Shown here one piece after another: positions 7,307 through 22,074 of a stretch of 61,023 nucleotides of DNA. Position numbers and translations under genes: made by a program. The notes beneath the pieces were generated by a model that saw nothing but the letters and a program-made list of their open reading frames with translations, did no database searches and was not told the DNA's origin. Every line of letters starts with the position of its first letter. Positions within the stretch are counted from its first letter, which is position 1. Source of the DNA: a virus (lineage: Duplodnaviria > Caudoviricetes); the IMG/VR virus record IMGVR_UViG_3300042554_000484, positions 1 to 61,023 of that record; one strand, 5' to 3'.

Positions 7307-7729
7307 TCAGGTCAGGTCAACCCACAGGTAACGGAACGTAGCCGCCGCCTCGTTGATCGCAGAAGCAGTGGCGTTCACCGCGTACACCGTGACCGTGTTC
7401 GTAGCCGTGACCGCAGCCCCAGCGAACACAAGACCCGTTGTCAGCGCGGGAGGATTGACAACCACCACGTCACCGGCGGCAGCGCCCGTGACCGTGATCG
7501 TTCCCGATCCCGTCTCGCCGGCAGCGATCTCGGCGAAGTCCACCGAACCCGTGCCAGTAGCGATCTTCTTGATGACGGATCCCGAAGATCCGACAGCGAG
7601 CGTGCCCGCTGTCAGATCACCGGTCACCGTGGCGTCGTCACCGACCGTGAGGTCATCGGTAGCGACCACGTCATCGTCAGCGTGTAGCCGGCCGACAAGG
7701 GCCTCTCCCTGAGTGAGACGGTTAGACAT
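7307..7729 (-). CDS. Capsid decoration / head fibre-like protein
   Basis: Directly downstream of the major capsid gene; Thr/Ala/Val-rich beta protein. Confidence 0.55.
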   Translation of the reverse strand: MSNRLTQGEALVGRLHADDDVVATDDLTVGDDATVTGDLTAGTLAVGSSGSVIKKIATGTGSVDFAEIAAGETGSGTITVTGAAAGDVVVVNPPALTTGLVFAGAAVTATNTVTVYAVNATASAINEAAATFRYLWVDLT

Positions 7730-8706
7730 CAGGCCACCGCTGTGTTGAAGTAGACACCGAGGTCGCTGGACACGACCTTGTTGTCGAACGCAACCTCAGC
7801 CTCGACACGATCCGCCTTGAGGGCGTCCATGCGAATCTGAGAGGTGCCGACCGTCTGGCCGAGGCCACCCGACACACCAGTCCACGAGAAGATGTAGCCG
7901 GCGGACGGGGTGAGCAGGCCGGGGTTCGGGGCGACGTGGCCGAGCCACGCAACCTTGCCCACGTTGAACGAGTAAGCGCCAGTGGCACCCTCGTTGTTCG
8001 TGGCCCGGATCGACTTGGCGACGAGCACGCGGTCCACCTCGAACATGCGGGCGAGCATGTCGCTCGTCACCACAGAAGAAGAGGTGTACTTGATGCGGTC
8101 GACGATGTCGGGGTGATGACGCAACTTGCGGAACGTCTCGTACCCGAGGACGAGGGTGTTGGCCTCGAAGCCCGTGGTCGAGAGGATCTGCGCCTTGCCG
8201 GTCTCAACATTCTCAATCGGATCGGAGTTGGCGTAGTCGCTCCACTGCTTGAACTCGTCCGTGGAGGGAGCGCCGGCAACACCGGTGTAGTCCTTGCCCC
8301 AGACCGAAGTGGTCATGTAGTCGGACACGAACTGGACCTCGCGACGGAGCAGGAGACGCTGCGTCACGAACTCGGCAGCCTCACGAAGCGGGTTCAGCGG
8401 GCTGTCCGCGTTCGCCTTCGTCTGATCGCCGACATCCTTGTGGAACGCCCACACGTCAGCCGAGTACGTCGCGGTGCTCAGGTTGTAGCCCGAGCCAGCC
8501 GACTCGGTTGCGTCGGCGCGGCGCTGGGCCTCGTCGCGGAACCAGTCGTTCTTCGTGTAGACGAAATACTTGTCCGACTTCTTGTCCACCGGGACAACCG
8601 GGAAGACCTTGTCGGCGATGAAGTTCTCCGACTTCTGCATGTACGCGACCGAGATGTTGGTCAGGATCGCGTCGATGTGAACATTGTTCACGTTCGGCTG
8701 TGCCAT
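7729..8706 (-). CDS. Major capsid protein
   Basis: 325 aa after scaffold and cement genes; HIDAILTNISVAY...FIADKVFPVVPV...WSDY..SDPI pattern of lambda gpE-like capsid proteins. Confidence 0.88.
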   Translation of the reverse strand: MAQPNVNNVHIDAILTNISVAYMQKSENFIADKVFPVVPVDKKSDKYFVYTKNDWFRDEAQRRADATESAGSGYNLSTATYSADVWAFHKDVGDQTKANADSPLNPLREAAEFVTQRLLLRREVQFVSDYMTTSVWGKDYTGVAGAPSTDEFKQWSDYANSDPIENVETGKAQILSTTGFEANTLVLGYETFRKLRHHPDIVDRIKYTSSSVVTSDMLARMFEVDRVLVAKSIRATNNEGATGAYSFNVGKVAWLGHVAPNPGLLTPSAGYIFSWTGVSGGLGQTVGTSQIRMDALKADRVEAEVAFDNKVVSSDLGVYFNTAVA

Positions 8707-8735: not shown

Positions 8736-9131
8736 TCACGCAGCCCGCGAGGGCGCGGCGCAGTTGACGACGGCGGTTGCGATTTCGTTGTCGGCTCCGA
8801 CTGCGAGGATCACGGTGCCGACGACGTACTCAGTCGTGTCGGTGCCGGGGACCTTGGCATCAGCCTTGCCTGCGTTGTTGGTTCCGATGAGGGTGCCAAC
8901 GGTCAGAGCGGCAGAGGCGACGATCTTCGTGCCGCCGGCCACAACGATCTCGGCTTCCTCGCCCTGAAGGGGCGCGTTCTGAAGCACGCCGATCGGCCGG
9001 TCAGTGGCGCCGTTGCACAAGGTCACGACACCGCCCGTTCCGATCTCGACGAACTTGTACTGATGGGTGCTGAGGTCCGCCCCCGCGACGAGGGTGATCT
9101 TCAGCGAGTAGTTGTTGATCTCGTATGCCAC
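8736..9131 (-). CDS. Capsid cement/decoration protein (DUF2190-like)
   Basis: AGADLS..YKFV...PIGVLQN.P..GE.AEI...G..K pattern; sits between scaffold and capsid. Confidence 0.7.
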   Translation of the reverse strand: MAYEINNYSLKITLVAGADLSTHQYKFVEIGTGGVVTLCNGATDRPIGVLQNAPLQGEEAEIVVAGGTKIVASAALTVGTLIGTNNAGKADAKVPGTDTTEYVVGTVILAVGADNEIATAVVNCAAPSRAA

Positions 9132-9136
9132 GGCGA

Positions 9137-9949
9137 TCAGCCCTTCTTCTCGGCGAGGTACTCGGTGTAGAGAGCCGGGTCGCTGACGAACACGTCAGAG
9201 AGAGCCTGCTCGAAAGTGGCTGAGGTGCCGTCAGCGACAGCGGCCTTAGCCAGCGACTCCGCCTTGTGGAAAGCGGAGCCAGTATGAACGGGCGTTGAGC
9301 CGATCTCGCTGAAGATGTCAGCGGACTCGACCTTCGCGTTGGCCGCAAGCAGCGTGCTCTCGACCGACTTCGCCAGGGCCTCATCGACCTCGGCAAGGCG
9401 ACGCAGCGCCGGGCCGACCTGATCGGCGTCAAGACCGAGAGCCCCGTAGGTCTCGCGGGCCTTCACGACCGCGTCAGCGTCAGCACGCTCTGCACGCTCC
9501 TTGAGAAGCGTGGCCTCGGCAGCCTCGGCCTTAGCCATGGCCTCCTGCGCCTGCTTCTCCATGACCTCGAACGCCTTACGAACAGACTCAGGCGCAGCCT
9601 TCATCATGTCCTCGTCGTCCTCGGGCTCTTCCTCATCCGAATCGCCACGGGAGGCCATCTCCTTCTCCATATCGGCGATCCGCGACTCGGCAGCGGCGAG
9701 GGCCTTCAGGGCCTCGTCGAGCCGATCCTCGGTGCTCTTCTCCATGTGGCCCTCCTGGGCGTCGGTGGACGGCACCTCCTCTTCGGAGGTGTCAGGTTCC
9801 TCGGTGATCTGCTCCATCGCTGCCACAACAGCGTCAGGGTCGGCCGCCTTCATGACGAGCCACCCCTCGGCAAGGTGAGCAGGATGATCGACGCCGGATG
9901 TCTCTTCGATAGCAAGATTGACCATCTTGCGCGTACGGCGACGCTCCAC
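9137..9949 (-). CDS. Capsid scaffolding protein
   Basis: GTG start after AGGAGG; N-terminal EETSGVDHPAH, acidic Ala-rich coiled coil, ends PALYTEY. Confidence 0.75.
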   Translation of the reverse strand: MERRRTRKMVNLAIEETSGVDHPAHLAEGWLVMKAADPDAVVAAMEQITEEPDTSEEEVPSTDAQEGHMEKSTEDRLDEALKALAAAESRIADMEKEMASRGDSDEEEPEDDEDMMKAAPESVRKAFEVMEKQAQEAMAKAEAAEATLLKERAERADADAVVKARETYGALGLDADQVGPALRRLAEVDEALAKSVESTLLAANAKVESADIFSEIGSTPVHTGSAFHKAESLAKAAVADGTSATFEQALSDVFVSDPALYTEYLAEKKG

Positions 9950-10155
9950 AGATCCTCCTAAACCAGACACGGGCCGCCAACCCCTAAGTAGGGGCGACGA
10001 CCCGCAGGTCTCGATGAGGCTAGGTTAGCACGATCCCTGTCCCCCGAGAGGGTTGCGAAACGGGTTGTGCGGATGCTAAGGCAAGGCCGACAGCCCAGCC
10101 GGCGATGAAGCCGCAGCCGAGCCACGCCGCCACTGCGACGACAGCGACCCCCGTC

Positions 10156-10377
10156 TCAGGGGTCCACGAGTTCCGTAGGTCCACCGTTGAACACCACTAC
10201 GGGCTTGCTGCGGACTCGTCCACGGGAAGCGGACAGGCGAATGTCGACCTGCTCGGCGGGGAACGCCCGCATGGCGAGGAGGAACTCGGGGGAAAGCAAC
10301 TGTGCACACCACGCCGCCACAACAGGGGGTATGTCGGGTGAGTCGAGGGCAGCCTTGACCACGTCCCGCTGCATCAT
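10156..10377 (-). CDS. Hypothetical protein
   Basis: 73-aa ORF between protease and scaffold. Confidence 0.5.
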   Translation of the reverse strand: MMQRDVVKAALDSPDIPPVVAAWCAQLLSPEFLLAMRAFPAEQVDIRLSASRGRVRSKPVVVFNGGPTELVDP

Positions 10378-10417
10378 CCGAGTGACTCCCGCAGCATCCG
10401 CTCTTCTCCGGGCAGAC

Positions 10418-11083
10418 TCACTCGGTCTCCTCCAAGTCGACGAACAGTCTCTCGGCGCGTCCCCCAATAGAGTAGCCCCTGATCTTGCCGCCCTTGACTA
10501 ACTCCCACGCCCACGGCTTCCACTTCACGCCGAGGAACACGGTGTTAGCGGGGAACGACACCGGTTCATGTGTGTCCTCACCGGTCGCGGCCTTCTTCAT
10601 CATCGGCACCTGCACCTCGTAAGGCCACGTCATCACCTCGACCCACTCCCCAGCGACCTCATCCCGGTCATGCTGAAGACGGATCCGGCGGTCGCCGCCC
10701 TTGACGTAATCCCACACGGCCTTCTGCAACTCTTGCGCGTCGGTCCACTCAGAGTGGGCGTCGAGACGGTCGGGGATGTACATGGGGCCGAGGGTGAACA
10801 TCTCCTCAGAGACGGCCTTGGACACCTCGAAGTCGCCGACACTCTTCGCCACCTCGGGAGTGAAGGCGTCAACAGCGAACAGGCGGGCCTGCTCCTCGGT
10901 GATCTCTTCGAGGCGCGGGTCACCGTCCACGATGTACAGGGCGAGACGTGGGTAGTCGACCCACTGCTTCTCGACGATGTCCCATAGGTAGGTGTCAAGG
11001 GTCTGGGCTTCGTCGTCTTGCTCCATGCGGAACAGGGCGTAGATGCCTTGCTCGTCGACCTTACCGAACAGTCTGGTAGCCAT
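10418..11083 (-). CDS. XkdF-like (S78-related) prohead serine protease with an N-terminal immunity-like domain
   Basis: C-terminal part: G..Y.PD..DAH.EW...I.LQH...W..VK.G.I.GYSIGG. First ~80 aa: ALFR...W...IVDGD...EEITEEQA. Confidence 0.78.
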   Translation of the reverse strand: MATRLFGKVDEQGIYALFRMEQDDEAQTLDTYLWDIVEKQWVDYPRLALYIVDGDPRLEEITEEQARLFAVDAFTPEVAKSVGDFEVSKAVSEEMFTLGPMYIPDRLDAHSEWTDAQELQKAVWDYVKGGDRRIRLQHDRDEVAGEWVEVMTWPYEVQVPMMKKAATGEDTHEPVSFPANTVFLGVKWKPWAWELVKGGKIRGYSIGGRAERLFVDLEETE

Positions 11084-11104: not shown

Positions 11105-13717
11105 TTAGACTAGGCCGGCGTCTTGAGCCGTCTGGAACCCCTGGAACAGGGTCGTGCCGATCGACAGCACCGAACCGGACGGCACCGCAATGCTCCGTGC
11201 CATGCGGGTCATGCGGTTGTACGTCTTCCAGCGGGTCCGATTGTCGCGAGACTCACGATATGTCTCGTACTCGGCGTGGATCGGCTCCTTCGCCTTGAGG
11301 GATCCGGGCGTGTGGAACTGCAACTCGAACTTCTGCCCATTCGGGTGAACGGCAGCGACGTTGATCCCCTGGTAGGGGTCGCCTTCCTGCCAGTAGTTCT
11401 TGACTCGCATCTGGTAGCCCTTGGCTTCGAGGTCGCTGATCGTGGCGGACACGCCATCGGTGTAGCCGTCTTCCTCGAAGGTCATGGTGTAGCGCACCAC
11501 GTCGGACATCTTGTCGGCAGTGACCTCGGCGTCGCCGCCGTTCTCGACCTTCTCGTCGTCGATCTTCCGAGCGAGGGACTTCTCCGCCTTCATCCGGTAG
11601 TCGAGACCCTCCATGGTGCCGCCGTTAGCGTTCGCCGTGTCGATCATGTCTTTCGTGATCTCGGGCTCGGCCTCGGCTGCCTTGTCACGAACCCGCTTGG
11701 CCGCTGCGACCACGTTGTCGGGTCGACCGGTGGCCGAGGGGTTGTCGACCGGGTTCAACTTGTAGCCGCCATAAGACGCGCCACCCTCGGGCGCCACCGA
11801 GTCCCCTCCGCCGGCCGAGGATCCACCACCCTTACGGGGGGCATGGCTCGACTGGTCATGTGACCCGTGCTTCTCGACAGGCCAGTTGAGGGTCACCACG
11901 GCACCACCCGGCAGGGAGAACGTGGTCAGGCTGTTGGGCAGGTAGTCGTAGTACAGGGTGTGGCCGTCGAGTGACTTCGAGGTGCGGTTGCGCTTGTCAC
12001 CCGGCCACATGCCGGTGACCTCACGGTGCCGGATCGCGCAGTAGCCCTTGGCCTGCTCGCTGGTCATGTACTTCCCGACCGCAGCCACACAGGCAGTGAA
12101 GTCGCCGCCGGCGCCCCACGAAATCTTGCCCTTGCCACCGCCACGCCAGTAGTCCCGCAGCGCCTCGGGGTTGCCGCGCTTCTCCATCTCGTCCGCGAGG
12201 TAGGCGTAGGAACCGAAGTCGGACAGGTCGTCGTCGTCCATGGTGGACAGCAACTCTTCCTCGTCGACCTCGTCATCGGTCAGTGGCCCGCCCGTGAGCC
12301 ACGCCGAGCAGGATCGTGCCGCAGCGCACTTGAACTGGAACAACTCGCAGTAGCCCAGACCCGCCGCCTCGGCGACATCTTCACCCTCGTCGCTGATGTT
12401 GCCGGCGATGGCATCGACGATCTCTTCCTTCACGTTGAAGGCGGCACAGTTGCCGCAGCGGGTCGTAGACGCCTCATCCGCCGGCACGCCCCACACCTCA
12501 CCGAGACGCTCCCAGTAGTCGCCGGGCTCGTCCGGGTTCATCGGCCCATACAGGTACTCGTCGATGGCGTGCTGCCGGTTCTCAAGGTTGACGTGGATGT
12601 CAGTGATCGCCTCGGGGACGGCACGCTTCTCCACGTCACCGAGCACGGAACGCACCCATGACCGGCCGGGGTCTCCGCCCCACGCATCCCACGCCACACG
12701 CCACGGCGTCGGCTCCCCGTCGTCGAGTTGGGCGTGGTCGCCGCGCTGCTTGCCGTGCCGGGCGAAGTAGGCCCGCATCTTCACCAGCGTGTCCTGGCCG
12801 ACCGTGCCGCCCTCGGCGAGTTGCCTAGCCCGGTTGCGGCCCACTGAGGTGAACCCGTCGCCGGCCTTGCCGTCCTCAATCCACGCCACGGCTCGACGGG
12901 CAGCGGAGCGGACAGCGTCGGGCACCTTGTACGAGTCGGCCTTCTCAAGGGCCCCAATGGACTTCAGGGACGACGCCCGATGCCCCACGACCGTGTCCGT
13001 GGGCCGGAAGCCCTGAGAGGTGAGCCGGTACACGCGGATCAGCACCGCTGGATCCTCTTCCGAGGCGTTCAGGGTGAAAGTGGAGTCGGGCACGTTGACC
13101 TTGCCCTCGGTGACGATCCGCTCGATGCGGCCCCTGGCGGGTCCACCGGATGAGCCCCAGGTGACGAAGTCGTCGACTCGCCATTCCTTCGCCTTAGCGA
13201 ACCGTTCGATCTGGTCGAGACGGGCCTGCGCTTCCTCGCGAGTGTCGTAGGTGCCGAACTCCCGATCCGTGTCCTCGGCCATGACGACGTACTTGCCGTC
13301 CCGCTCGACGATGCGCTTGAGCATGGCTTTCGGCTTCTCGGCGCCCATGATGGAGTCGACGTGGACCGTGTTCACGTTGGGTGACGCCTTGAGGACGTAG
13401 CCGTCGACTGTGAGGAGCACCTGCACGACGCCGCCGGCTTCGAGGGCCTTGGCGAGGGGCTCGGACAGGTCGCCGGGGAAGTCGATGTCGTCGACCGACG
13501 CCACCTCGGCCTCATCGACCACGATCACTGACCGGGACCATTGGTCATCCTCGTGTCCGTGGTCGAGGCCCCGCTTCAGCATCTCCTGCGACACCAGATG
13601 GTGGGCCTGCACCGCAGCCGGGTCATCCACGGCAGAGGCGTCTAGGCGGGTGTGCAGTGCGACTAGGTCGTCGGTGGGGAGAGCGGCCAGCCTGACGGCG
13701 GGGTCGGTCACTGTCAT
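11105..13717 (-). CDS. Multidomain head-associated polyprotein with C-terminal RelA/SpoT-like (Apk/Tas1-type) nucleotidyltransferase toxin domain
   Basis: C-terminal motifs RMKAEKSLARKI, DVVRYT, KNYW, YQGIN, FELQFHT, H..YE..R; internal AW.AWGGD.G, Cys-rich and Tudor/SH3-like modules. Confidence 0.8.
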   Translation of the reverse strand: MTVTDPAVRLAALPTDDLVALHTRLDASAVDDPAAVQAHHLVSQEMLKRGLDHGHEDDQWSRSVIVVDEAEVASVDDIDFPGDLSEPLAKALEAGGVVQVLLTVDGYVLKASPNVNTVHVDSIMGAEKPKAMLKRIVERDGKYVVMAEDTDREFGTYDTREEAQARLDQIERFAKAKEWRVDDFVTWGSSGGPARGRIERIVTEGKVNVPDSTFTLNASEEDPAVLIRVYRLTSQGFRPTDTVVGHRASSLKSIGALEKADSYKVPDAVRSAARRAVAWIEDGKAGDGFTSVGRNRARQLAEGGTVGQDTLVKMRAYFARHGKQRGDHAQLDDGEPTPWRVAWDAWGGDPGRSWVRSVLGDVEKRAVPEAITDIHVNLENRQHAIDEYLYGPMNPDEPGDYWERLGEVWGVPADEASTTRCGNCAAFNVKEEIVDAIAGNISDEGEDVAEAAGLGYCELFQFKCAAARSCSAWLTGGPLTDDEVDEEELLSTMDDDDLSDFGSYAYLADEMEKRGNPEALRDYWRGGGKGKISWGAGGDFTACVAAVGKYMTSEQAKGYCAIRHREVTGMWPGDKRNRTSKSLDGHTLYYDYLPNSLTTFSLPGGAVVTLNWPVEKHGSHDQSSHAPRKGGGSSAGGGDSVAPEGGASYGGYKLNPVDNPSATGRPDNVVAAAKRVRDKAAEAEPEITKDMIDTANANGGTMEGLDYRMKAEKSLARKIDDEKVENGGDAEVTADKMSDVVRYTMTFEEDGYTDGVSATISDLEAKGYQMRVKNYWQEGDPYQGINVAAVHPNGQKFELQFHTPGSLKAKEPIHAEYETYRESRDNRTRWKTYNRMTRMARSIAVPSGSVLSIGTTLFQGFQTAQDAGLV

Positions 13718-13744
13718 TAGTCCTCCGGGCTCGATCCTCCTAGG

Positions 13745-13957
13745 TTACCGCTCGACAGGCTCCTGGCCGGGGCTTGGCAGTAGCGCATATGCCATAACGT
13801 CGATGAGGATCTCGCCGTAGATGTCAGTGGCGTCTTCGAGTTTCTGCCCGGCCTTCACTTCGCGCTCCATCACGTCCCAGAACTCGGGGGGTGCCTGATC
13901 GTAGGCGACGGCCTTGAGGGCGGCGATGACTTCGAGGTCTTTCTCCTGCTCGGTCAC
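13745..13957 (-). CDS. Small acidic protein (candidate immunity)
   Basis: 70 aa, Asp/Glu-rich, coupled to the upstream ORF by GTGA overlap. Confidence 0.5.
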   Translation of the reverse strand: MTEQEKDLEVIAALKAVAYDQAPPEFWDVMEREVKAGQKLEDATDIYGEILIDVMAYALLPSPGQEPVER

Positions 13958-14151
13958 TTGACTCTCCGGTAGTACGGGGACTGGAAGACGGCCTCTTGCT
14001 CCTCCGGCGTCATCTTGTCGAACTCGTCGGCGAAGGCGTACATCTCGGGTAGGGCTTCGCGCATGGCCTGCTCATACTCGGTGTCGCTGGCGGTCTCGGG
14101 CAGGGCGTCATAGACCTTCTCCGAGGCTGCGAGGATCTTATCTACGTTCAT
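13954..14151 (-). CDS. Small acidic protein (candidate immunity)
   Basis: ATG at 14151 after GGAGG; own extended -10-like element just upstream. Confidence 0.55.
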   Translation of the reverse strand: MNVDKILAASEKVYDALPETASDTEYEQAMREALPEMYAFADEFDKMTPEEQEAVFQSPYYRRVK

Positions 14152-14195
14152 GGTCTTCCCTCCTTCCATACTCTAACCCCCGTTATGATACCACG

Positions 14196-17100
14196 TTAGT
14201 CGAACAGGGTTTGCTGCCCAGGAATCTGCGGCTCAGACGGAGCCCCAGCAGCCGCCTCAGTCTCCGTAGTCGACCGCCTCGGCCCGGAGGGGCTCAACTC
14301 CTTGATCCCATACCAATCCGTGCCCAGCAACGCCTCCTTGCCCGGCCAGGTAGCGGCACCATCGACGAAGCCCCACGACGCCACCTCGCGGGGGCTCGGA
14401 TAGTCAGGATCCGATGTCGGTAGATCGAGCCGCGCCCGCAGGCTCCTACCCGACCGCTCAACCGAGCCTGGAAGCGCACCGCTATCGAGCACCTCATCGA
14501 ACTGGTACTTGACTGAACTGGTCGCCCCACCGGTACGCGCCCAGTCGAAGCCCTGCCTCGCCCACGCGAACCCACCCACGTCGAGGGCGGCGTGGACATG
14601 CACGTCGGTGATGCCGTGTGAGATGTAGTAGTCCTCTGCCCGCTTATTGAAGACCTTGGCGAACCCGGTGCCCTGGTACTCCTCGTCGATTCGGAGGAGT
14701 TCGTGGCTTACAGCCACTCTGCCGTTGTCGTCAACGAAGAAGCGTCGCTGGAACTCGCCGGCCCAGTCTCCGTTCTCGGTGTAGATCGTGCCGGTGACAT
14801 CGACGTGGTTCTCGCCCCAGTAACGCTCGACAGTCACATCCCCGACCTCGGCTTGTAGCCGGACGACTCGGCCATCGGGTGTCATGCCCTCGTGGCCTAT
14901 CCCGTAGACCTCGTTGAAAGCGTCGGTGTCTAACCCCTCTAGATCGGATTGCCGCATCTCGTCACCGTAGTCAGCGACGTAGAGGTCCAAGTCGCTTTCC
15001 ATGCGTGCTTCGAGGCGCTCGTCGAACTCTTGCTGGTAGGTGTTGCCCATGAGGGGCTCTTCATAGTCTGGGTCGTCACTGCGATCTACCCAGCCCTCGT
15101 CTGCCATCTCCTCGGCGACTGCATCGCGTGCGCCTTCCTCAATAACATCGGCATATTCGTCGCGGACTCGCTCACGCAACGCATCATCATCCATGCCGCC
15201 AGCGGCACCGACCTCCAACACGTCACGGCCCGGCCCCACGTTAGCCATCGCGTCGATGTCTTTCTGCCGAGCGCCCCAACCCGACGACGCCCCACCGCCA
15301 CCACGACCATGCGACTTCTGATCATGCGCCCCGCCGAGATGCTTCCGCAGAGACTTATCCATCCACGACGGCCTGCCGTACTTCTCGTAGTAAGACTCCC
15401 GCAGGCTACGAGCCTCATCGTCAGTGAAGCCCCAACGCTTCTTCCGCTTGATCCCCACCCGTTCCGCAACCCGAGTGATACGCCGCTCCACACGTCCCAT
15501 CGCCGAACCGAGGCGCCGCGCCAAAGGCGATTCCGGCAAGTTGAGATCCGAATAGTCACCTGTCACAAGGGCCTGAGCGATAGCCTCACGCTGATCTTCG
15601 TATTCTTCCTGCCACGTCTTACCGCCGCCGCGCCTGGAACTAGGTTCATCCGTGTCGAAGTTACTGGTGAACGTGCCACCACCTGACGGCGTGTACCGGC
15701 CCGGCACGCCACGCAACTCGTCAGCCGCAGACGACCCGCCACCACGACGGCCATGTGACGACTGATCGTGTGAGCCGTGCTTTAGGACTGGTCGGAGGCC
15801 GGGCTCGAAGGCGACGACGATTCCTCGCCCGCGAACTTCGCCCACAGAGTCTTTGCGTACTCGTCGATCTCCGCGTCCGTCATCTTCGACAGGTCCGGCA
15901 GTTTCACTACCTGCAACGGCCTTTCCGACTGCTCCTGTGCCACCGGTATCTATCTCCTCGAAGTTGGCTACGTCCCAAATGCTGATCTGGTCCCGCTTAC
16001 GTCCCGCGTCGATAGCGGTGTCACGGTCCATGATGTTCTCGGACACGTCGAGATACACCTTGCCGTCCGCCTGATTGTGCCACAACCCCAGATAGGAGCC
16101 CTCGGACAACTCGCGGTTGGACTTCATGAAAGAGCCCAACGCCTCGGGGCCGCGCTCCGGGTCGTAGAACTCGTCGGCGTCCATGATGGCGCCCTTGCTG
16201 CCGCCCATGGCGACCATGAAGCCCTTAGTGGGTTCGGATCCGTCGACCATGTTGACGGAGAGGCCGCCGTTAGCGCGGACCCTTTCGACGATGGATTGTG
16301 CGACGGTGCCGTCGAGTTTCAGGCTTGATCCTCCGCCGCCTCGGCGACCGTGTGAGGACTGGTCGTGGCTGCCGTGCTTCAGTACGGGGCGCAGCCCAGG
16401 CTCGAACGCCACGAGCACCGACTTCGCTATCGGCTTCACCGCAGTAGGCGGGACAGCGGGATCGAAAGTGTCGAGGATGATGACACGCTCGAACTCGTCA
16501 TCGCCGGCTGCCTTTGTCACGCCCGTTCCCCAGTTGTATCTCCCAGCGAAGTATGTCGACGCCGGGTTCGTGGTGGATCCACCAGTCAGGGACCATTCTG
16601 CCCAAGACTCGGCCAAATGCTCGTAATCATTGAATCTACCGTAGGTACTAAGCGCGTCCATGCCGCCGTTGTCCCGTAGCGCATAGTAGTCGTCGCCGAT
16701 CTGACGGTTGCTGCGCTTGTCGGTGACGTGGCCGTACTCGTGCGTGACAACATACTTCACTTGGCTTACCGTCTGCGCGGAAGGCATCGAATAGCCTTCT
16801 TCGCGGTTGATCAACTTGGCGCCTTGCGCGTATTCCGGGCGCATGTTTATCTGCTTCTCGCCTCGTAGTACGAACGCTTTAGTTGAGTCCTGCACGATGT
16901 CAGCGTTATCGCGGAAGGGCGCGTTACTGAACACTACCGTCAAGCCGCTGACGGGAACCTGCGACTGGCAAGTGTTGAGCGCCTCCATGGTGTCGCGCAT
17001 GGCTGCCGCGTCGGGCTCGCCACCGCCGAGCAACTCGACTCGCACTCGTGAGCCGTTAGGTCCGGTGTATTCGGTTGTCCTATCAGTGAAGTCGTCGGCT

Positions 17101-17279
17101 AGGTCTCCGGCCCGCTGCGGATCGTTGGGGTACTGCCCACTGAACCGGGCTAGGTAGTCGGCGCGGATGTCATCGCGGCTACGCTGCGCCCAGCCCTCGG
17201 GAAGATCAGATGTCCCGCCCTTGTGCGGGTTATGCGACGCCTGATTATGAGACCCATGCTTGACAACCGTGTCCATCAC
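14196..17279 (-). CDS. 1027-aa tagged polyprotein: HExxH metallopeptidase, unknown/possible SAM-lyase-like, unknown, and GNAT domains
   Basis: Four KH(G/LGG)xHxQxSH motifs; HEYGH...STYG...EHLAE; YLGLW...VYLDVS; EEYQGTGFA...GGFAWARQGF. Confidence 0.75.
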   Translation of the reverse strand: MMDTVVKHGSHNQASHNPHKGGTSDLPEGWAQRSRDDIRADYLARFSGQYPNDPQRAGDLADDFTDRTTEYTGPNGSRVRVELLGGGEPDAAAMRDTMEALNTCQSQVPVSGLTVVFSNAPFRDNADIVQDSTKAFVLRGEKQINMRPEYAQGAKLINREEGYSMPSAQTVSQVKYVVTHEYGHVTDKRSNRQIGDDYYALRDNGGMDALSTYGRFNDYEHLAESWAEWSLTGGSTTNPASTYFAGRYNWGTGVTKAAGDDEFERVIILDTFDPAVPPTAVKPIAKSVLVAFEPGLRPVLKHGSHDQSSHGRRGGGGSSLKLDGTVAQSIVERVRANGGLSVNMVDGSEPTKGFMVAMGGSKGAIMDADEFYDPERGPEALGSFMKSNRELSEGSYLGLWHNQADGKVYLDVSENIMDRDTAIDAGRKRDQISIWDVANFEEIDTGGTGAVGKAVAGSETAGPVEDDGRGDRRVRKDSVGEVRGRGIVVAFEPGLRPVLKHGSHDQSSHGRRGGGSSAADELRGVPGRYTPSGGGTFTSNFDTDEPSSRRGGGKTWQEEYEDQREAIAQALVTGDYSDLNLPESPLARRLGSAMGRVERRITRVAERVGIKRKKRWGFTDDEARSLRESYYEKYGRPSWMDKSLRKHLGGAHDQKSHGRGGGGASSGWGARQKDIDAMANVGPGRDVLEVGAAGGMDDDALRERVRDEYADVIEEGARDAVAEEMADEGWVDRSDDPDYEEPLMGNTYQQEFDERLEARMESDLDLYVADYGDEMRQSDLEGLDTDAFNEVYGIGHEGMTPDGRVVRLQAEVGDVTVERYWGENHVDVTGTIYTENGDWAGEFQRRFFVDDNGRVAVSHELLRIDEEYQGTGFAKVFNKRAEDYYISHGITDVHVHAALDVGGFAWARQGFDWARTGGATSSVKYQFDEVLDSGALPGSVERSGRSLRARLDLPTSDPDYPSPREVASWGFVDGAATWPGKEALLGTDWYGIKELSPSGPRRSTTETEAAAGAPSEPQIPGQQTLFD

Positions 17280-18376: not shown

Positions 18377-19861
18377 TTACGCCTCTTCGTCGTCGGGCTC
18401 AGGCTCCTCGTCAGCCTTCTTACCCCCACCGAACGGTGCCGCACCACCTGGGAACGCCGGCGCGTCCGGCACAATCCCGGTGCGCTCGGCCAACTGGCGT
18501 TGCGCGTTCGGCAGAGCCAGGAGAGCCTTCTGGTCCTCTTCGCTCATGTCGGATCCGCCGGCGTCCTCGGTGTTGTGGGCAGCCGGGGGCAGGCCCGCAA
18601 GGTCGCGCAGGTGATCTTCGAGGGTGGGGTCGGGCACGAGGATGCCAGCGGCGGTCATCTTGGAGACGAAGTCGCTGATCTCGGTGAGGTCGACATGTGC
18701 CACCTCGGAGTACACGAGGTTGGGGCAGCGGGTCGTGTCCATGCCGTTGAGGCGCATGAGGCGCGGGATGGCGTGGGCGTTGATCGTGTCAGCGATCGTC
18801 TTGCACAGGCTATCCACAGCCATCGTCCACAGGTCCATCTTCGTCGCGCCGAGGGCAAACGAACCAACCCGGTCATGGCCGAGGAGGATGAAGTCGCTGA
18901 GGACCGACATGGCGATGCGCTGGTCATACCGCTGGATAATCTTGTCCGTGTCGAACTGACGTGACCCGCCCGACGACAGCAACGTCAACTCGAAGAGTTT
19001 ATGGCCCGCCTCGTCGTAGATGACGGGGAAGATGACGCCCTCGTTCTCGTTCCGCTTGATCGAGGTGACGATCTCCTTGACAGCGTTCAACACACCGATC
19101 TGCTCCGGGGTTGCTGTCGAGGACAGGTACTCCGGGGGCACATGGGCGACGGGAAGGCCGGCGAGGTCACGCTCGATACCGATCGCTTCGATCTCTTCGA
19201 TGCGGCGCTTGAAGTACCAGGGGCGGTAGGCGTTGCGGAGCAGTGAACGGCCCTCGGGGTTATTCTTCTGCGTCGTCGTGCGGAACAGCAGCGACTTGTC
19301 GATCGGGATGGTGTGCATCCCGCCACCGGACGGGTCGTACTGTGTGTACGCCTGGATTCCGCCGTCCTCGTCGAACTCCCACTTCATCCACGTCTCTTGG
19401 GCGCGGATCGGCCACTTGCGCCAGCCAATCTTGCCGTCATTGAACTTGGACCGCTTCTTCGGATCCTTCTGATCGGGGCCGAGGCGACGCTTGTACACGA
19501 TCTCGTGCCAGGACCAGCCGAACACAACGAAAGACAGGATCGAGGCGAGCGCGGAGTCCCACGAGTCGCTCATGTCATTGAGGCACTCTTCAACGAAACG
19601 GGCCGCCTCAACATCGTCCTCGGCGGGCTCGTCGGTGGCGCCGATCTCATTGAACGGGTCGATGCGCCATTCGAGGCGGGTGATGATCTTCTCGACGGCG
19701 AACAGGAATGAGCCGATGACCGGATCGTTGTCCGACATCTCCCGGTAGGTGCGGGTGCCGAGGCGGCCCCGCAACTGTGTGAGGAACTCCTCGTACACAT
19801 AGCCCGAGGAGCGGCGTAGACCGGTTGAGCCTATCTCGGTGAGATCGGGCCTCGGTGCCAT
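18377..19861 (-). CDS. Portal protein (DUF935 / Mu gp29-like)
   Basis: 494 aa; NPEGRSLLRNAY.PW.FK..I...EAIGIERDLAG.P; GSFALG. Confidence 0.88.
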   Translation of the reverse strand: MAPRPDLTEIGSTGLRRSSGYVYEEFLTQLRGRLGTRTYREMSDNDPVIGSFLFAVEKIITRLEWRIDPFNEIGATDEPAEDDVEAARFVEECLNDMSDSWDSALASILSFVVFGWSWHEIVYKRRLGPDQKDPKKRSKFNDGKIGWRKWPIRAQETWMKWEFDEDGGIQAYTQYDPSGGGMHTIPIDKSLLFRTTTQKNNPEGRSLLRNAYRPWYFKRRIEEIEAIGIERDLAGLPVAHVPPEYLSSTATPEQIGVLNAVKEIVTSIKRNENEGVIFPVIYDEAGHKLFELTLLSSGGSRQFDTDKIIQRYDQRIAMSVLSDFILLGHDRVGSFALGATKMDLWTMAVDSLCKTIADTINAHAIPRLMRLNGMDTTRCPNLVYSEVAHVDLTEISDFVSKMTAAGILVPDPTLEDHLRDLAGLPPAAHNTEDAGGSDMSEEDQKALLALPNAQRQLAERTGIVPDAPAFPGGAAPFGGGKKADEEPEPDDEEA

Positions 19862-21544: not shown

Positions 21545-21814
21545 TCAAGAGGCTTTCATAACGGGGATTGGAATAATGTTGCGCTGCCGGCGGAGCAGGC
21601 GACGCTGATGCTCAGTCGTGCCGCCCCAGATCCCGACGACGTTGACGTGGAGGGCGTACTCCAAGCAGGCGTCCTGCATCGGGCAAACATCGCACAGAGC
21701 CTTGACTTCGCGGATGTCCCGATAGACGATGCTGTTATCGGGGGTAAAGAACAGGTCGGTTCCCACCTGTGCACAAGGCTCGGAACCGGTAAAGGCTGGG
21801 TACTTCATGCACAT
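21545..21814 (-). CDS. whiB: WhiB family transcription factor
   Basis: C...DLFF...KALCDVCP....CLEYAL...GIWGGTT...RR. Confidence 0.9.
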   Translation of the reverse strand: MCMKYPAFTGSEPCAQVGTDLFFTPDNSIVYRDIREVKALCDVCPMQDACLEYALHVNVVGIWGGTTEHQRRLLRRQRNIIPIPVMKAS

Positions 21815-22074
21815 TCTCCCTTTCGTTGTTTCAGACGGTCTTCACGAGTTGAGTTGTCGGGCCGGACACGGTAACCGTTCCGCCATACCACCCCGCCCGC
21901 GACGCCGTCGAAGTTGCTCTTCGAGGGGCGAACCGTAGTGATGCACTGCTCGACGATGGTGCACCGCTGGCAGTAATAGAGAGCGAGGCTGGCTTCGGGA
22001 AACTGGTAGTGATCGAACACTGAAGGCTCGACCCCAATACATGCGGCATCGGATAGATCCGCAATCACGCTCAC
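21805..22074 (-). CDS. Divergent WhiB-like protein
   Basis: AAC.G....FD...C..C....C...GVAGG. Confidence 0.65.
   Translation of the reverse strand: MSVIADLSDAACIGVEPSVFDHYQFPEASLALYYCQRCTIVEQCITTVRPSKSNFDGVAGGVVWRNGYRVRPDNSTREDRLKQRKGECA

What the first reader, a model, noticed from the sequence alone, without database searches (positions are those of the whole stretch)
11105..17279. Candidate new system: peptide-tagged effector polyproteins in the head module
SEEN: two giant ORFs between MuF and the prohead protease carry five copies of a K-H-G-S-H-(D/N)-Q-x-S-H-type motif followed by a Gly-rich linker, at 17232-17261, 16350-16379, 15753-15782, 15309-15344 (KHLGGAHDQKSH variant) and 11843-11872. 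Each copy comes ahead of a different domain: HExxH peptidase, unknown/SAM-lyase-like, unknown, GNAT and RelA/SpoT-like. Copies 2 and 3 share the identical peptide VAFEPGLRPVLKHGSHDQSSHGRRGGG but differ at many synonymous positions, which points to selection on the peptide. KNOWN: MuF proteins can carry C-terminal toxins, and prohead proteases process internal head proteins. Here MuF is bare and the cargo is in separate genes. INFERENCE: the motif is a portable capsid-loading and/or cleavage tag, so tagged effectors are packaged, cut apart and injected with the DNA.
Basis: partly seen in the sequence, partly recalled or inferred. Interest (0 to 1): 0.92.

Follow-up and report, generated by a model that had tools for sequence, protein, structure and literature searches.

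The report
Peptide tag on phage head cargo
A short, histidine-rich peptide sits in front of almost every enzyme domain encoded between the MuF and scaffold genes of a large group of uncultured phages, which most likely marks those enzymes as capsid cargo, though no experiment has yet tested this.

Summary
All five K-H-(x)-H-(D/N)-Q-x-S-H copies are at the stated coordinates, and copies 2 and 3 share 27 identical residues although 18 of 27 codons differ.

The motif recurs widely:
- A DNA pattern for it finds at least 119 stretches in IMG/VR, against 9 (about 4 real) in 185,579 species genomes.
- A profile finds 1,104 protein clusters.
- In 107 of 119 loci with a recognisable head gene, all 304 motif ORFs lie between portal/MuF and scaffold/capsid.
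- 175 of 233 complete ORFs start with the motif and only 3 end with it.
- Copies are about 209 residues apart.
- In AlphaFold models every window copy lies in a low-confidence linker between folded domains.

The domains behind the tags are an M34-like zincin, an unknown domain, a weakly folded helical one, a GNAT and a small-alarmone-synthetase/Apk-like domain. Relatives carry ADP-ribosyltransferases, NUDIX and others.

Best reading: a portable N-terminal address and/or processing tag for effectors packed into the head. It is a new variant of known ideas (polyvalent proteins, MuF toxins, the T4 capsid-targeting sequence). Loading, cleavage and injection remain inferred. No cultured phage examined carries the tag, and no paper in the library holds the motif strings I searched for.

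The parts
18377..19861 (-). Portal protein (Mu-type)
   Evidence: Pfam Portal_Mu, E 1.6e-36. 59% identical to the portal of Arthrobacter phage Kovu.
17276..18373 (-). MuF minor head protein, 365 aa, with no C-terminal cargo. Its stop overlaps the start of ORF A.
   Evidence: Pfam Phage_Mu_F, E 2e-10, residues 236-334. Invariant C300, C303, H327, C330, C332 across 36 homologues.
14196..17279 (-). ORF A, a 1027-aa four-unit polyprotein (tag-zincin, tag-unknown, tag-helical, tag-GNAT)
   Evidence: ORF. AlphaFold2 model. Full-length homologues.
17232..17261 (-). Tag copy 1 (KHGSHNQASH), residues 7-16 of ORF A
   Evidence: Lies in the pLDDT<50 segment 1-24.
16431..17207 (-). ORF A domain 1, residues about 25-283: zincin metallopeptidase with HEYGH
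   Evidence: pLDDT about 90. VIA matches: anthrax lethal factor catalytic domain Z 9.9; PPEP-3 Z 9.7, rmsd 3.8, 170 aligned; PPEP-2 Z 9.0. Relatives carry Pfam ATLF or SprT-like.
16332..16412 (-). Tag copy 2 with leader (VAFEPGLRPVLKHGSHDQSSHGRRGGG); core at 16350-16379
   Evidence: Lies in the pLDDT<50 segment 284-324.
15930..16307 (-). ORF A domain 2, residues about 325-450: alpha/beta domain of unknown function, the commonest cargo domain among relatives
   Evidence: pLDDT about 70-84. About 155-230 local hits among the fetched loci and proteins. phrog_17808, unknown function. Atlas hits are only unnamed viral clusters.
15735..15815 (-). Tag copy 3 with leader, identical in peptide to copy 2; core at 15753-15782
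   Evidence: Lies in the low-confidence stretch 451-553.
15375..15617 (-). ORF A domain 3, residues about 555-635: helical and weakly predicted
   Evidence: pLDDT about 50-60, three helices. About 20-30 homologous hits.
15309..15344 (-). Tag copy 4, the long-loop variant KHLGGAHDQKSH
   Evidence: Lies in the pLDDT<50 segment 641-665. The same KH-x4-HDQ variant is common in relatives.
14247..15278 (-). ORF A domain 4, residues about 668-1011: helical region followed by a GNAT acetyltransferase fold
   Evidence: pLDDT about 90. Foldseek top rows are all GNATs, prob 1.00. VIA matches: NatD Z 9.1, TacT2 Z 7.6, AtaT Z 7.3. Relatives are named GNAT by JGI.
13954..14169 (-). Small acidic ORF, 71 aa, pI 4.3, untagged
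   Evidence: No Pfam family. Homologues only in L012 and L118.
13745..13957 (-). Small acidic ORF, 70 aa, pI 4.1, untagged
11105..13717 (-). ORF B, 870 aa: untagged N-terminal module, Tudor-like insert, a domain that is fused to proteases in other phages, a poorly conserved middle part, one tag, and an Apk/SAS-like domain
12629..12940 (-). ORF B residues about 260-363: helical domain that is fused directly upstream of XkdF in other phages
   Evidence: pLDDT 80-92. In L119, L069, L019 and L021 the segments homologous to it lie in or overlap the XkdF-bearing ORFs. BFVD holds a 105-120-aa match at 28-47% identity in proteins named prohead protease or XkdF.
13034..13171 (-). Hva1_TUDOR-like domain, ORF B residues 183-228
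   Evidence: Pfam PF11160, E 1.2e-6. In other loci it is a separate ORF of about 198 aa between XkdF and scaffold, with the tag after it.
11843..11872 (-). Tag copy 5 (KHGSHDQSSH), ORF B residues 617-626
   Evidence: Lies in the pLDDT<50 segment 561-646.
11108..11770 (-). ORF B residues about 650-870: small-alarmone-synthetase / adenosine 3'-pyrophosphokinase-like (RelA/SpoT superfamily) domain
   Evidence: PDB 8vx3: E 2.8e-17; Foldseek E 8.5e-10, TMt 0.80; VIA Z 20.3, rmsd 2.7, 191 aligned. Tas1 Z 12.6. tblastn hits the C-termini of MuF proteins of S. pneumoniae, Pasteurella and Mannheimia prophages.
10418..11083 (-). XkdF-type prohead serine protease
   Evidence: Pfam Peptidase_S78_2, E 6.6e-11. 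D108, H110, H138 and S205 (in GYSIGG) are invariant in 29 homologues.
9137..9970 (-). Scaffolding protein; never tagged in any locus
   Evidence: phrog_13547, E 2.2e-56. Homologues found in 41 loci. Gene order.
8736..9131 (-). Small head protein, annotated 'head fiber' in Arthrobacter phages
   Evidence: phrog_673. Annotation seen.
7729..8706 (-). Major capsid protein
   Evidence: Weak Pfam Phage_cap_E hit. Position and homology to annotated capsid genes.

Best explanation
What it is. The element is a portable peptide module of about 35-40 residues. It has a 15-30-residue leader, often phi-phi-x-F-x-P-G-L-(K/R)-P-V-phi. The core is K-H-(1-5 x)-H-(D/N)-Q-x-(S/T)-H-G. The tail is flexible: Gly-rich in this phage and N-W-A-x-G in most relatives. 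The module is attached to the N-terminal side of each cargo unit encoded between MuF and the scaffold gene. It occurs in a large clade of uncultured phages with a Mu-type portal, MuF, an XkdF protease and a separate scaffold. The hosts are probably mostly actinobacterial.

Shown here:
- the motif, its strong purifying selection and its restriction to this genomic slot;
- its N-terminal polarity, with one tag per domain-sized unit;
- its place in predicted disordered linkers;
- the enzymatic, toxin-like nature of the domains behind it;
- free fusion and fission of tagged units between phages.

Inferred:
- The tag is the signal by which each unit is taken into the assembling procapsid, by binding a conserved assembly component (scaffold, capsid interior, portal/MuF or the protease).
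- It is also the place where polyproteins are cut into separate enzymes. The most likely cutter is the co-encoded XkdF prohead protease. Where a zincin is present it may cut as well.
- The freed enzymes then leave the head with the DNA and act in the newly infected cell. This parallels the N-terminal capsid-targeting sequence of T4 internal proteins.

I put about 0.5 on 'per-unit head-cargo tag used for loading and/or processing'. Within that I put roughly 0.45 on cleavage at or near the tag and 0.5 on the tag itself mediating loading. The two are not exclusive.
For: Selection on the peptide. Copies 2 and 3 are identical over 27 aa with 18 of 27 codons changed. The chance that 20 random substitutions are all silent is about 5e-12.

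Recurrence. The profile finds 1,104 clusters at E<=1e-3, 320 at <=1e-10 and 33 at <=1e-30 among 1.84 billion representatives.

Genomic slot. 107 of 119 loci hold a recognisable head gene. In those, 304 of 304 motif ORFs lie after portal/MuF and before scaffold/dec/capsid on the same strand. 49 of 55 ORFs between MuF and XkdF carry the motif (16 loci). 30 of 33 loci have a further tagged ORF between XkdF and scaffold.

Polarity. 175 of 233 complete non-identical ORFs have the first motif within 60 aa of the earliest start, and only 3 have the last motif within 60 aa of the stop. 200 of 258 database proteins have it within 45 aa of the called N-terminus.

One tag per unit. Median spacing is 209 aa (n=215) and the median tail is 231 aa (n=343). 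P0123 has nine H[DN]Q..H motifs and nine Pfam ADPrib_exo_Tox stretches in 2201 aa.

Linker position. All five window copies lie in pLDDT<50 segments between domains with pLDDT 70-95.

Cargo looks like effectors. In the window there is an M34-like zincin, a GNAT close in fold to tRNA-acetylating toxins, and an SAS/Apk domain like Tas1 and the Apk2 MuF toxins. Relatives add ART, DRAT and NUDIX.

Who carries it. Structural head genes (portal, scaffold, dec, capsid) never carry the tag in the loci listed. The two small acidic ORFs that could be immunity proteins or chaperones are untagged.

Protease. An apparently active serine protease is conserved in the module, with invariant His and Ser.
Against: No experiment or proteome bears on it. 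None of 8 deposited phage regions examined has the tag, so no virion mass spectrometry can be consulted.

ORF B has no N-terminal tag, only an internal one. Head-module proteins can therefore do without a leading tag. B may enter through its own N-terminal module.

In the ORFs of about 198 aa between XkdF and scaffold, the tag follows a Tudor-like domain and precedes only an acidic tail of about 70 aa. 'Tag precedes a catalytic domain' is therefore not universal.

The closest cultured relatives, the Arthrobacter phages with a 59%-identical portal, also have enzymes between MuF and scaffold. They have no tag. This head type does not need it.

About eight invariant polar residues (K, three H, D, Q, S/T, G) with a variable-length loop look more like a metal site or docking motif than a typical protease site.

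Pfam did not detect XkdF (E<=0.01) in the ORF directly upstream of the scaffold in L030, L032, L075 and L112. Those contigs are incomplete.

A plain HExxH occurs in only 9 of 16 complete arrays, so the zincin cannot be the general processing enzyme.
Confidence: 0.5

Rival explanations
1. Processing junction only. The motif is just the recognition site at which the XkdF protease (or the zincin) cuts polyproteins and trims leaders. Loading into the head is achieved by other means, such as the N-terminal module of ORF B, fusion to MuF or bulk entrapment.
For: The copies lie in linkers between domains. A conserved, apparently active protease is in the same module. MuF-tag-cargo and XkdF-tag-cargo fusions exist in which a tag would not be needed for loading. 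ORF B carries only an internal tag.
Against: 175 of 233 complete ORFs start with the tag and only 3 end with it. A pure junction should be left on either side when genes split. Single-domain proteins would have no need for a cleavage site 20-30 residues from their start, unless the leader has a function of its own. The number of invariant residues is far greater than at known prohead-protease sites (the comparison is recalled; the motif data are).
Confidence: 0.2
2. Metal-binding or ejection-related element. The three His and the Asp bind Zn/Ni or a similar ion. This could keep each unit tethered, unfolded or inactive inside the producer cell or capsid. It could also serve as the leading end for threading through portal and tail. 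No role in loading or cleavage is implied.
For: K, H, H, D, Q and H are invariant and S/T nearly so. The KH-to-HDQ loop varies from 1 to 5 residues, as in small metal knuckles. N-terminal polarity would suit a leading end for ejection.
Against: There is no structural or sequence match to any known metal site (Pfam: no family is shared by more than one of the 68 tag copies scanned, each at E>=0.013). AlphaFold gives the segment no fold. One inhibitory or tethering peptide for many unrelated enzyme folds is hard to picture.
Confidence: 0.15
3. Function after injection. The tag acts in the host cell, for instance as an activation or turnover signal read by a host protease, or as a localisation signal. 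Its link to the head module only reflects where effector genes sit.
For: All tagged domains are of kinds that act in the cytoplasm. No evidence here excludes a host-side role.
Against: The tag is essentially absent from bacterial genomes and prophages. The scan found 9 stretches in 185,579 species genomes, about 4 of them real and all on MAG contigs. It is confined to one head-module type. This points to a partner encoded by the phage, not the host. XkdF itself is sometimes a tagged unit.
Confidence: 0.07

Closest known systems
Polyvalent proteins of phages and conjugative elements (Iyer, Burroughs, Anand, de Souza, Aravind 2017, PMC5512222; abstract and passages read)
   Same: Both have several effector domains in one polypeptide, encoded next to virion genes and MuF. 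The domains include a zincin-like metallopeptidase, GNAT, ART and RelA/SpoT. In both cases the proteins are proposed to be packed in the head, processed and injected.
   Different: That work proposes the zincin as the processing enzyme. In the passages found it describes no recurrent inter-domain peptide ('linker', 'glycine', 'disordered', 'low-complexity' and 'boundaries' each occur 0 times). Here a conserved tag precedes each unit. It also heads single-domain proteins. A zincin is missing from many arrays (any HExxH in 9 of 16).
MuF polymorphic toxins, including Apk2 (Jamet et al. 2017, PMC5576092, passages read; Paulet et al. 2025, PMC12226406, abstract and discussion read)
   Same: The genomic slot is the same, directly after portal and MuF. 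The toxin domain class is the same. The C-terminus of ORF B matches the C-termini of MuF proteins of S. pneumoniae, Pasteurella and Mannheimia prophages and the SAS/Tas1 fold.
   Different: In the window MuF is a separate 365-aa protein and the Apk-like domain sits at the end of another gene. The phage record has no tyrosine or serine integrase, and the tag is almost absent from bacterial genomes. MuF toxins, by contrast, are described as a feature of temperate phages. No tag motif is mentioned in that paper ('motif', 'linker' and 'cleavage' each occur 0 times).
Capsid-targeting sequence (CTS) of phage T4 internal proteins and Alt, removed by the prohead protease gp21 (recalled from the literature; the reviews listed were seen only as a search listing)
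   Same: Both are short N-terminal peptides that mark otherwise unrelated proteins for the head interior. In T4 the peptide is coupled to cleavage by the prohead protease, and the cargo is ejected with the DNA.
   Different: There is no sequence likeness. The protease family differs (XkdF/S78_2 here). The tag here is longer and far more conserved. It is also repeated inside polyproteins, in front of every domain.
Ejection-protein sets of giant phages (phiKZ, SPN3US), matured by the prohead protease (abstract openings seen in the listing)
   Same: Many head-internal proteins are cut by the prohead protease at a short consensus site and delivered to the host.
   Different: Those are separate genes with short cleavage consensus sites. 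No portable conserved tag heading each domain is described there. These are small siphovirus-sized genomes (61 kb).
Encapsulin cargo-loading peptides (recalled; no call)
   Same: A short conserved peptide joined by a flexible Gly-rich linker directs diverse enzymes into an HK97-fold shell.
   Different: Those peptides are usually C-terminal. Their binding to the shell is demonstrated. They are not cleaved, and they are not found in infectious phages.

Membership tests
Polyvalent proteins (Iyer et al. 2017) | Two or more distinct effector-type domains in one polypeptide of a phage or conjugative element | tested here: met
   ORF A has four folded units: a zincin, an unknown domain, a helical domain and a GNAT. 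The record is a virus record.
Polyvalent proteins (Iyer et al. 2017) | Zincin-like metallopeptidase domain often present | tested here: met
   HEYGH is present. VIA matches PPEP-3 (Z 9.7, rmsd 3.8, 170 aligned) and lethal factor (Z 9.9).
Polyvalent proteins (Iyer et al. 2017) | Encoded among virion genes or next to MuF (phage type) | tested here: met
   Gene order is portal-MuF-A-B-XkdF-scaffold-capsid.
MuF polymorphic toxins (Jamet et al. 2017) | N-terminal MuF domain fused to a C-terminal toxin domain in one protein | tested here: not met
   The window's MuF is 365 aa and ends just after the Phage_Mu_F domain. The cargo is in separate ORFs. Fused forms do exist in relatives L013, L111, L119 and P0125.
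MuF polymorphic toxins (Jamet et al. 2017) | Toxin domain shared with other polymorphic toxin families | tested here: met
   The ORF B C-terminus matches MuF-toxin C-termini, Tas1 and the XopAD C-terminal region.
MuF polymorphic toxins (Jamet et al. 2017) | [quoted passage not shown] | tested here: inconclusive
   XkdF follows ORF B directly. Two small acidic ORFs follow ORF A, but they have no family and occur only in close relatives.
MuF polymorphic toxins (Jamet et al. 2017) | Association with temperate phages or prophages | tested here: not met
   There is no Phage_integrase or Resolvase match in the complete 61-kb record. The tag pattern found only 9 stretches, about 4 real and all on MAG contigs, in 185,579 species genomes.
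RelA/SpoT superfamily, small alarmone synthetase / Apk | SAS nucleotidyltransferase fold | tested here: met
   8vx3: Z 20.3, rmsd 2.7, 191 of 203 aligned. RelP Z 12.6 and Tas1 Z 12.6. phmmer E 2.8e-17.
RelA/SpoT superfamily, small alarmone synthetase / Apk | Catalytic residues and product ((p)ppApp versus (p)ppGpp) | not tested
   I did not inspect active-site columns. The product cannot be told from sequence with these tools.
XkdF prohead protease (Pfam Peptidase_S78_2) | Score above Pfam's gathering cut-off and conserved Ser/His | tested here: met
   42.7 bits against a cut-off of 24. D108, H110, H138 and S205 are invariant in 29 sequences.
T4-type capsid-targeting sequence | N-terminal peptide on otherwise unrelated head-internal proteins | tested here: met
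   175 of 233 complete ORFs carry the tag within 60 aa of the start. The downstream domains are diverse.
T4-type capsid-targeting sequence | Sufficient to load a foreign protein, and removed by the prohead protease | not testable with these tools
   This needs packaging and cleavage assays.
Encapsulin-type cargo-loading peptide | Peptide binds the inner face of the HK97-fold shell | not testable with these tools
   The capsid protein was not part of the one complex job, and that job gave no verdict in any case.

The most novel reading that the evidence does not exclude
The K-H-x-H-D-Q-x-S/T-H-G module is a general, transplantable cargo-loading peptide for a real phage capsid. It would be the phage counterpart of encapsulin loading peptides and of the T4 CTS. 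One tag would be read per domain by a conserved head component and then clipped by the XkdF protease. Phages of this clade could then shuffle, fuse and split any enzyme gene into the slot and have it packed and injected. This would explain strings of up to nine or ten tagged toxin domains. It would also give a ready-made handle for loading chosen proteins into phage heads.
Probability: 0.3. Interest if true: 0.9.

Novelty: new variant of a known kind. Interest (0 to 1): 0.78.

Why it matters
Phages are known or suspected to inject proteins with their DNA. Outside T4 and a few giant phages, how cargo is chosen for the head is an open question. For MuF toxins and polyvalent proteins, delivery has only been hypothesised.

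This finding offers a sequence signature that is easy to search for. It marks more than a thousand protein clusters and is confined to one genomic slot. It therefore defines the likely cargo set of a whole clade of uncultured phages. That set includes many ADP-ribosyltransferases, acetyltransferases, peptidases and alarmone-type synthetases.

It also turns the loading question into simple tests: tag-reporter packaging, protease cleavage and partner pull-down. If the tag proves sufficient for loading, it would also be a tool for packing proteins into phage particles.

Tried and rejected
Nearby genomes and earlier notes
- Megablast of the region against deposited phages found no match.
- tblastn with the 27-aa peptide found no match even at E 10. 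My estimate is that a motif this short cannot reach BLAST significance in that database, so this says nothing about absence.

Cultured carriers
- I looked for cultured carriers through the five nearest phages by portal: Arthrobacter Kovu, Laroye and Ottawa, Microbacterium ValentiniPuff, and MT835491.
- I also looked through three phages with ART homologues: Streptomyces Marky, Gordonia Gray, and MW202455.
- 0 of these 8 regions hold the tag. The deposited collection as a whole could not be scanned for a pattern.

Literature
- Six motif strings matched anywhere in 0 papers.
- XkdF with protease, scaffold and cleavage together matched 0 papers.
- A search on freshwater actinophage ADP-ribosylating toxins returned one irrelevant paper.
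The polyvalent-protein and MuF-toxin papers keep their architectures in supplements that I could not see.

Complex prediction
- The job with XkdF, scaffold, MuF and the 40-aa tag gave 'no answer', score 0.00. It is neither for nor against binding.
- The capsid protein and the portal were not included.

Family and structure searches
- Pfam on the tags themselves found no family shared among the 68 copies.
- Pfam and NCBIfam on ORF A found nothing. PDB by sequence found nothing for ORF A.
- For domain 2 of ORF A, the Atlas gives only unnamed viral clusters. No structural row covers the domain on its own.
- For the N-terminal module of ORF B, VIA gives only short helical look-alikes at Z about 5.5.

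Ideas considered and set aside
- The zincin as the universal processing enzyme: it is not present in all arrays.
- A self-cleaving motif: there is no folded domain around it.

Other
- cluster look-up of two NCBI-sourced proteins gave no organism names.
- One script ended with an indexing error after printing the motif contexts. Its head-gene part was not repeated.

Full report
**1. The observation**

The window is a complete 61,023-base IMG/VR virus record (CheckV 100%). The minus strand carries a head module in this order:
- portal (Pfam Portal_Mu)
- MuF (Phage_Mu_F)
- ORF A, 1027 aa
- two small ORFs
- ORF B, 870 aa
- an XkdF-type protease (Peptidase_S78_2)
- scaffold
- a small head protein
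- the capsid protein

Translating the five stated ranges gives KHGSHNQASH, KHGSHDQSSH (three times) and KHLGGAHDQKSH. A six-frame scan of the window for H[DN]Q..H finds only these five plus one unrelated hit.

Copies 2 and 3 share a 27-residue peptide. 18 of its 27 codons differ and every difference is silent. Only 66 of 243 single substitutions in that stretch are silent. Twenty silent changes by chance are therefore of the order of 5e-12.

**2. How widespread the motif is**

My own estimate for a uniform sequence of that size is about 0.03.
- A slightly looser pattern found 9 stretches in the 596-Gb collection of 185,579 species genomes. Four of these look real, all on MAG contigs and three labelled Actinomycetota. 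Five look like chance His-rich or out-of-frame matches.
- I built a 38-position profile from 68 copies. It finds 1,074 proteins among 8,000 scored candidates in the 5.8-billion-protein set. It finds 1,104 cluster representatives at E<=1e-3 among 1.84 billion, with 320 at <=1e-10 and 33 at <=1e-30.
- No Pfam family matches the tag (68 copies scanned).
- None of six motif strings occurs in the paper library.

The broad consensus from 222 distinct contexts is V-x-K-H-G-[ST]-H-D-Q-[KS]-[TS]-H-G-[NS]-W-A-x-G. Its features are:
- K, both flanking H, Q and the last H are invariant.
- D and G are nearly invariant, and S/T accounts for 97% at its position.
- The loop between KH and HDQ varies from 1 to 5 residues.
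- A subset has an upstream phi-phi-R-F-x-P-G-L-K-P-V-phi leader, the same as in window copies 2 and 3.
- The window's Gly-rich tail (HGRRGGG) is the minority flavour.

**3. Where the motif sits**

I ran iterated searches from the window's own head proteins over the 119 loci, many of which are short fragments. They find portal in 60, MuF in 71, XkdF in 44, scaffold in 41, the small head protein in 34 and capsid in 29.

The order never varies: portal, MuF, one to seven tagged ORFs, XkdF, usually one more small tagged ORF, scaffold, small head protein, capsid. The counts are:
- 107 of 119 loci have at least one recognised head gene. In them, 304 of 304 motif ORFs lie downstream of portal/MuF and upstream of scaffold/capsid on the same strand.
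- In the 16 loci holding both MuF and XkdF, 49 of 55 ORFs of 80 aa or more in between carry the motif.
- In 30 of 33 loci holding XkdF and scaffold, a tagged ORF lies between them.

Portal, scaffold, the small head protein and the capsid protein never carry the tag in these loci.

The 12 loci without a recognised head gene are mostly short. Pfam finds MuF in two of them.

**4. Polarity and unit size**

- Of 233 complete, non-identical motif ORFs, 175 have their first motif within 60 residues of the earliest possible start. Only 3 have their last motif within 60 residues of the stop.
- Using the gene callers' own starts, 200 of 258 database proteins have the motif within 45 residues of the N-terminus.
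- The leader up to the HDQ is typically 19-29 residues. Successive motifs are a median of 209 residues apart (n=215). The last motif is followed by a median of 231 residues (n=343).

So there is one tag per domain-sized unit, always on its N-terminal side. When homologous units are fused in one phage and split in another, the tag stays with the downstream piece.

Extreme cases:
- P0123 has nine motifs and nine Pfam ADP-ribosyltransferase stretches in 2201 aa.
- P0126 has eight motifs with six ART stretches and a GNAT.
- P0122 has ten motifs with NUDIX and DUF3626.
- A 7059-aa protein has 20 profile matches, four of them strict.

**5. Structure of the window proteins**

AlphaFold2 on ORF A (62-row alignment, mean pLDDT 71) gives these folded units:
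- residues 25-283, pLDDT about 90
- residues 325-450, pLDDT about 70-84
- residues 555-635, pLDDT about 50-60
- residues 668-1011, pLDDT about 90

The low-confidence segments are 1-24, 284-324, 451-553 (broken only at residue 528) and 641-665. Together they contain tags 1 to 4.

ORF B (50 rows, mean pLDDT 63) has these folded parts:
- residues 5-115
- residues 134-172
- residues 260-363
- residues 650-870

Tag 5 (residues 617-626) lies inside the low-confidence stretch 561-646.

Fold matches:
- Domain 1 of ORF A resembles M34-type zincins. The matches are anthrax lethal factor catalytic domain (Z 9.9, rmsd 7.3, 193 aligned), PPEP-3 (Z 9.7, rmsd 3.8, 170 aligned) and PPEP-2 (Z 9.0). It carries HEYGH. 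Relatives score Pfam ATLF or SprT-like.
- Domain 4 is a GNAT. All top Foldseek rows are GNATs. VIA gives NatD Z 9.1 and the tRNA-acetylating toxins TacT2 Z 7.6 and AtaT Z 7.3.
- The ORF B C-terminus is a small-alarmone-synthetase fold. 8vx3 gives Z 20.3, rmsd 2.7, 191 aligned. RelP and the (p)ppApp-making T6SS effector Tas1 both give Z 12.6. By sequence it matches 8vx3 at E 2.8e-17.
- The same C-terminus matches by tblastn the C-termini of MuF proteins of S. pneumoniae, Pasteurella and Mannheimia prophages. That is the group characterised as Apk2 toxins (PMC12226406, abstract and discussion read).
- Domain 2 is the commonest cargo domain among relatives but has no named relative. Domain 3 is unknown.

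**6. Variations that bear on mechanism**

- MuF itself can be part of a tagged polyprotein, with a tag about 35 residues after the MuF domain. Examples are L013, L111, L119 and P0125. The window looks like the same arrangement split by a stop codon, because ORF A starts with the tag at residue 7 and its start overlaps the MuF stop.
- XkdF can also be a tagged unit, or be followed by a tag about ten residues after its last conserved block.
- ORF B has no leading tag.
- The upstream neighbour of XkdF has the ORF B N-terminal module in 25 of 44 XkdF loci. It has the Apk-like domain in 30 of 44.
- In L119, L069, L019 and L021 the segments homologous to ORF B residues 260-363 lie in or overlap the XkdF-bearing ORF.
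- In BFVD, a domain of 105-120 residues at 28-47% identity sits in proteins named prohead protease, XkdF, portal, ParB, Dps or HAD. ORF B may therefore enter the head by its own module, with tag 5 serving only to free the Apk domain.
- In many relatives the Tudor-like domain of ORF B is a separate ORF of about 198 aa after XkdF. In that ORF the tag follows the domain and precedes only an acidic tail.
- A plain HExxH is present in only 9 of 16 complete arrays, so the zincin is not a general processing enzyme.
- The protease family keeps D108, H110, H138 and S205 invariant.

**7. Interpretation**

The data fit best a per-unit N-terminal tag that marks proteins as head cargo. The restriction to one assembly-gene slot, the absence from structural proteins and from bacterial genomes, and the polarity all argue for a phage-encoded reader during head assembly. 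The presence of the tag inside polyproteins in front of every domain, in disordered linkers, next to a conserved protease, argues that it is also where units are separated. I hold the combined reading at about 0.5. Loading, cleavage and injection are all inferred.

The rivals are:
- a pure processing junction (0.2), weakened by the 175-versus-3 polarity;
- a metal-binding or ejection-related element (0.15), favoured by the invariant His/Asp pattern;
- a host-side function (0.07).

One complex prediction with XkdF, scaffold, MuF and the tag gave no verdict, so I do not count it either way.

**8. Comparison with what is known**

The polyproteins meet the defining features of polyvalent proteins (PMC5512222). 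The slot and the Apk-like domain tie them to MuF polymorphic toxins (PMC5576092, PMC12226406).

The window fails two MuF-toxin features. MuF is not fused to the toxin. There is also no sign of temperate life: no integrase match in the record and near-absence of the tag from bacterial genomes.

In working principle, the nearest precedents are the T4 capsid-targeting sequence and encapsulin loading peptides. Both comparisons are recalled; the T4 reviews were seen only as a listing. Neither resembles the tag in sequence.

In the passages and terms I searched, neither the polyvalent-protein paper nor the MuF-toxin paper mentions a recurrent linker motif. Their supplements were not visible to me.

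The nearest cultured relatives are Arthrobacter phages with a 59%-identical portal. Neither they nor the seven other deposited phages examined carry the tag. The whole deposited collection could not be pattern-scanned.

**9. Verdict**

The feature is real and strongly selected. It is a widespread sequence element that appears to be undescribed. I rate it a new variant of a known kind (packaged phage effectors with a targeting or processing signal). Interest is 0.78. The distribution is striking and makes the cargo-selection question directly testable, but the function is not yet shown.

Noticed in passing
window 13954-14169 and 13745-13957 (minus strand): Two small, very acidic, untagged ORFs (71 and 70 aa, pI 4.3 and 4.1) lie between the GNAT end of ORF A and ORF B. 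They have no family and have homologues only in the near-identical loci L012 and L118. They could be immunity proteins or chaperones for the neighbouring toxin-like domains.
   Followed up: partly
window 9950-10417: About 470 bases between XkdF and the scaffold gene hold no tagged ORF, whereas 30 of 33 related loci have one there. A possible 73-aa untagged ORF runs from 10374 down to 10156. The Tudor-like domain that fills this slot in relatives is embedded in ORF B here (tblastn matches between about 12929 and 13327).
   Followed up: partly
window 12629-12940 (ORF B residues 260-363); L119, L069, L019, L021: A helical domain of about 105 residues in ORF B is fused directly upstream of the XkdF protease in divergent loci. 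In BFVD it occurs in proteins named prohead protease, portal, ParB, Dps and HAD. It may be a second, domain-sized head-association module.
   Followed up: partly
P0123, P0126, P0122, P0121 (database proteins): Very large tagged arrays exist. P0123 has nine motifs and nine ADP-ribosyltransferase stretches in 2201 aa. P0126 has eight motifs with six ART stretches and a GNAT. P0122 has ten motifs with NUDIX and DUF3626. A 7059-aa protein has 20 profile matches, only four of which fit the strict core.
   Followed up: partly
L134 (MAG contig), minus strand around 173-221: Two tags sit in tandem only 14 residues apart (KHAQHDQSSHGRKGSAKHGTHDQSSHGNWA), with no domain between them.
   Followed up: no
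L120 and L123 (Arthrobacter phages Kovu and Ottawa), genes annotated 'RNA ligase': The window's XkdF protease matches the C-terminal part (profile positions 224-367 of 373) of PHROG 14859, which is labelled RNA ligase. The 'RNA ligase' genes after MuF in these phages therefore probably carry the prohead protease domain. Meanwhile the gene next to the portal is annotated 'capsid maturation protease' in Kovu, and it sits where MuF lies in the window (not tested).
   Followed up: partly
window 21545-21814 and 21805-22074 (minus strand): Two small Cys-rich ORFs look like WhiB-type regulators. I judged this by eye from the translations, and the label is recalled, not tested. It would fit an actinobacterial host.
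   Followed up: no
L138 (Streptomyces phage Marky), gene 10: A 1112-aa protein annotated 'ADP-ribosyltransferase' lies between the protease and scaffold genes of a cultured phage. It occupies the same slot and looks like a polyvalent protein, but it lacks this tag.
   Followed up: partly
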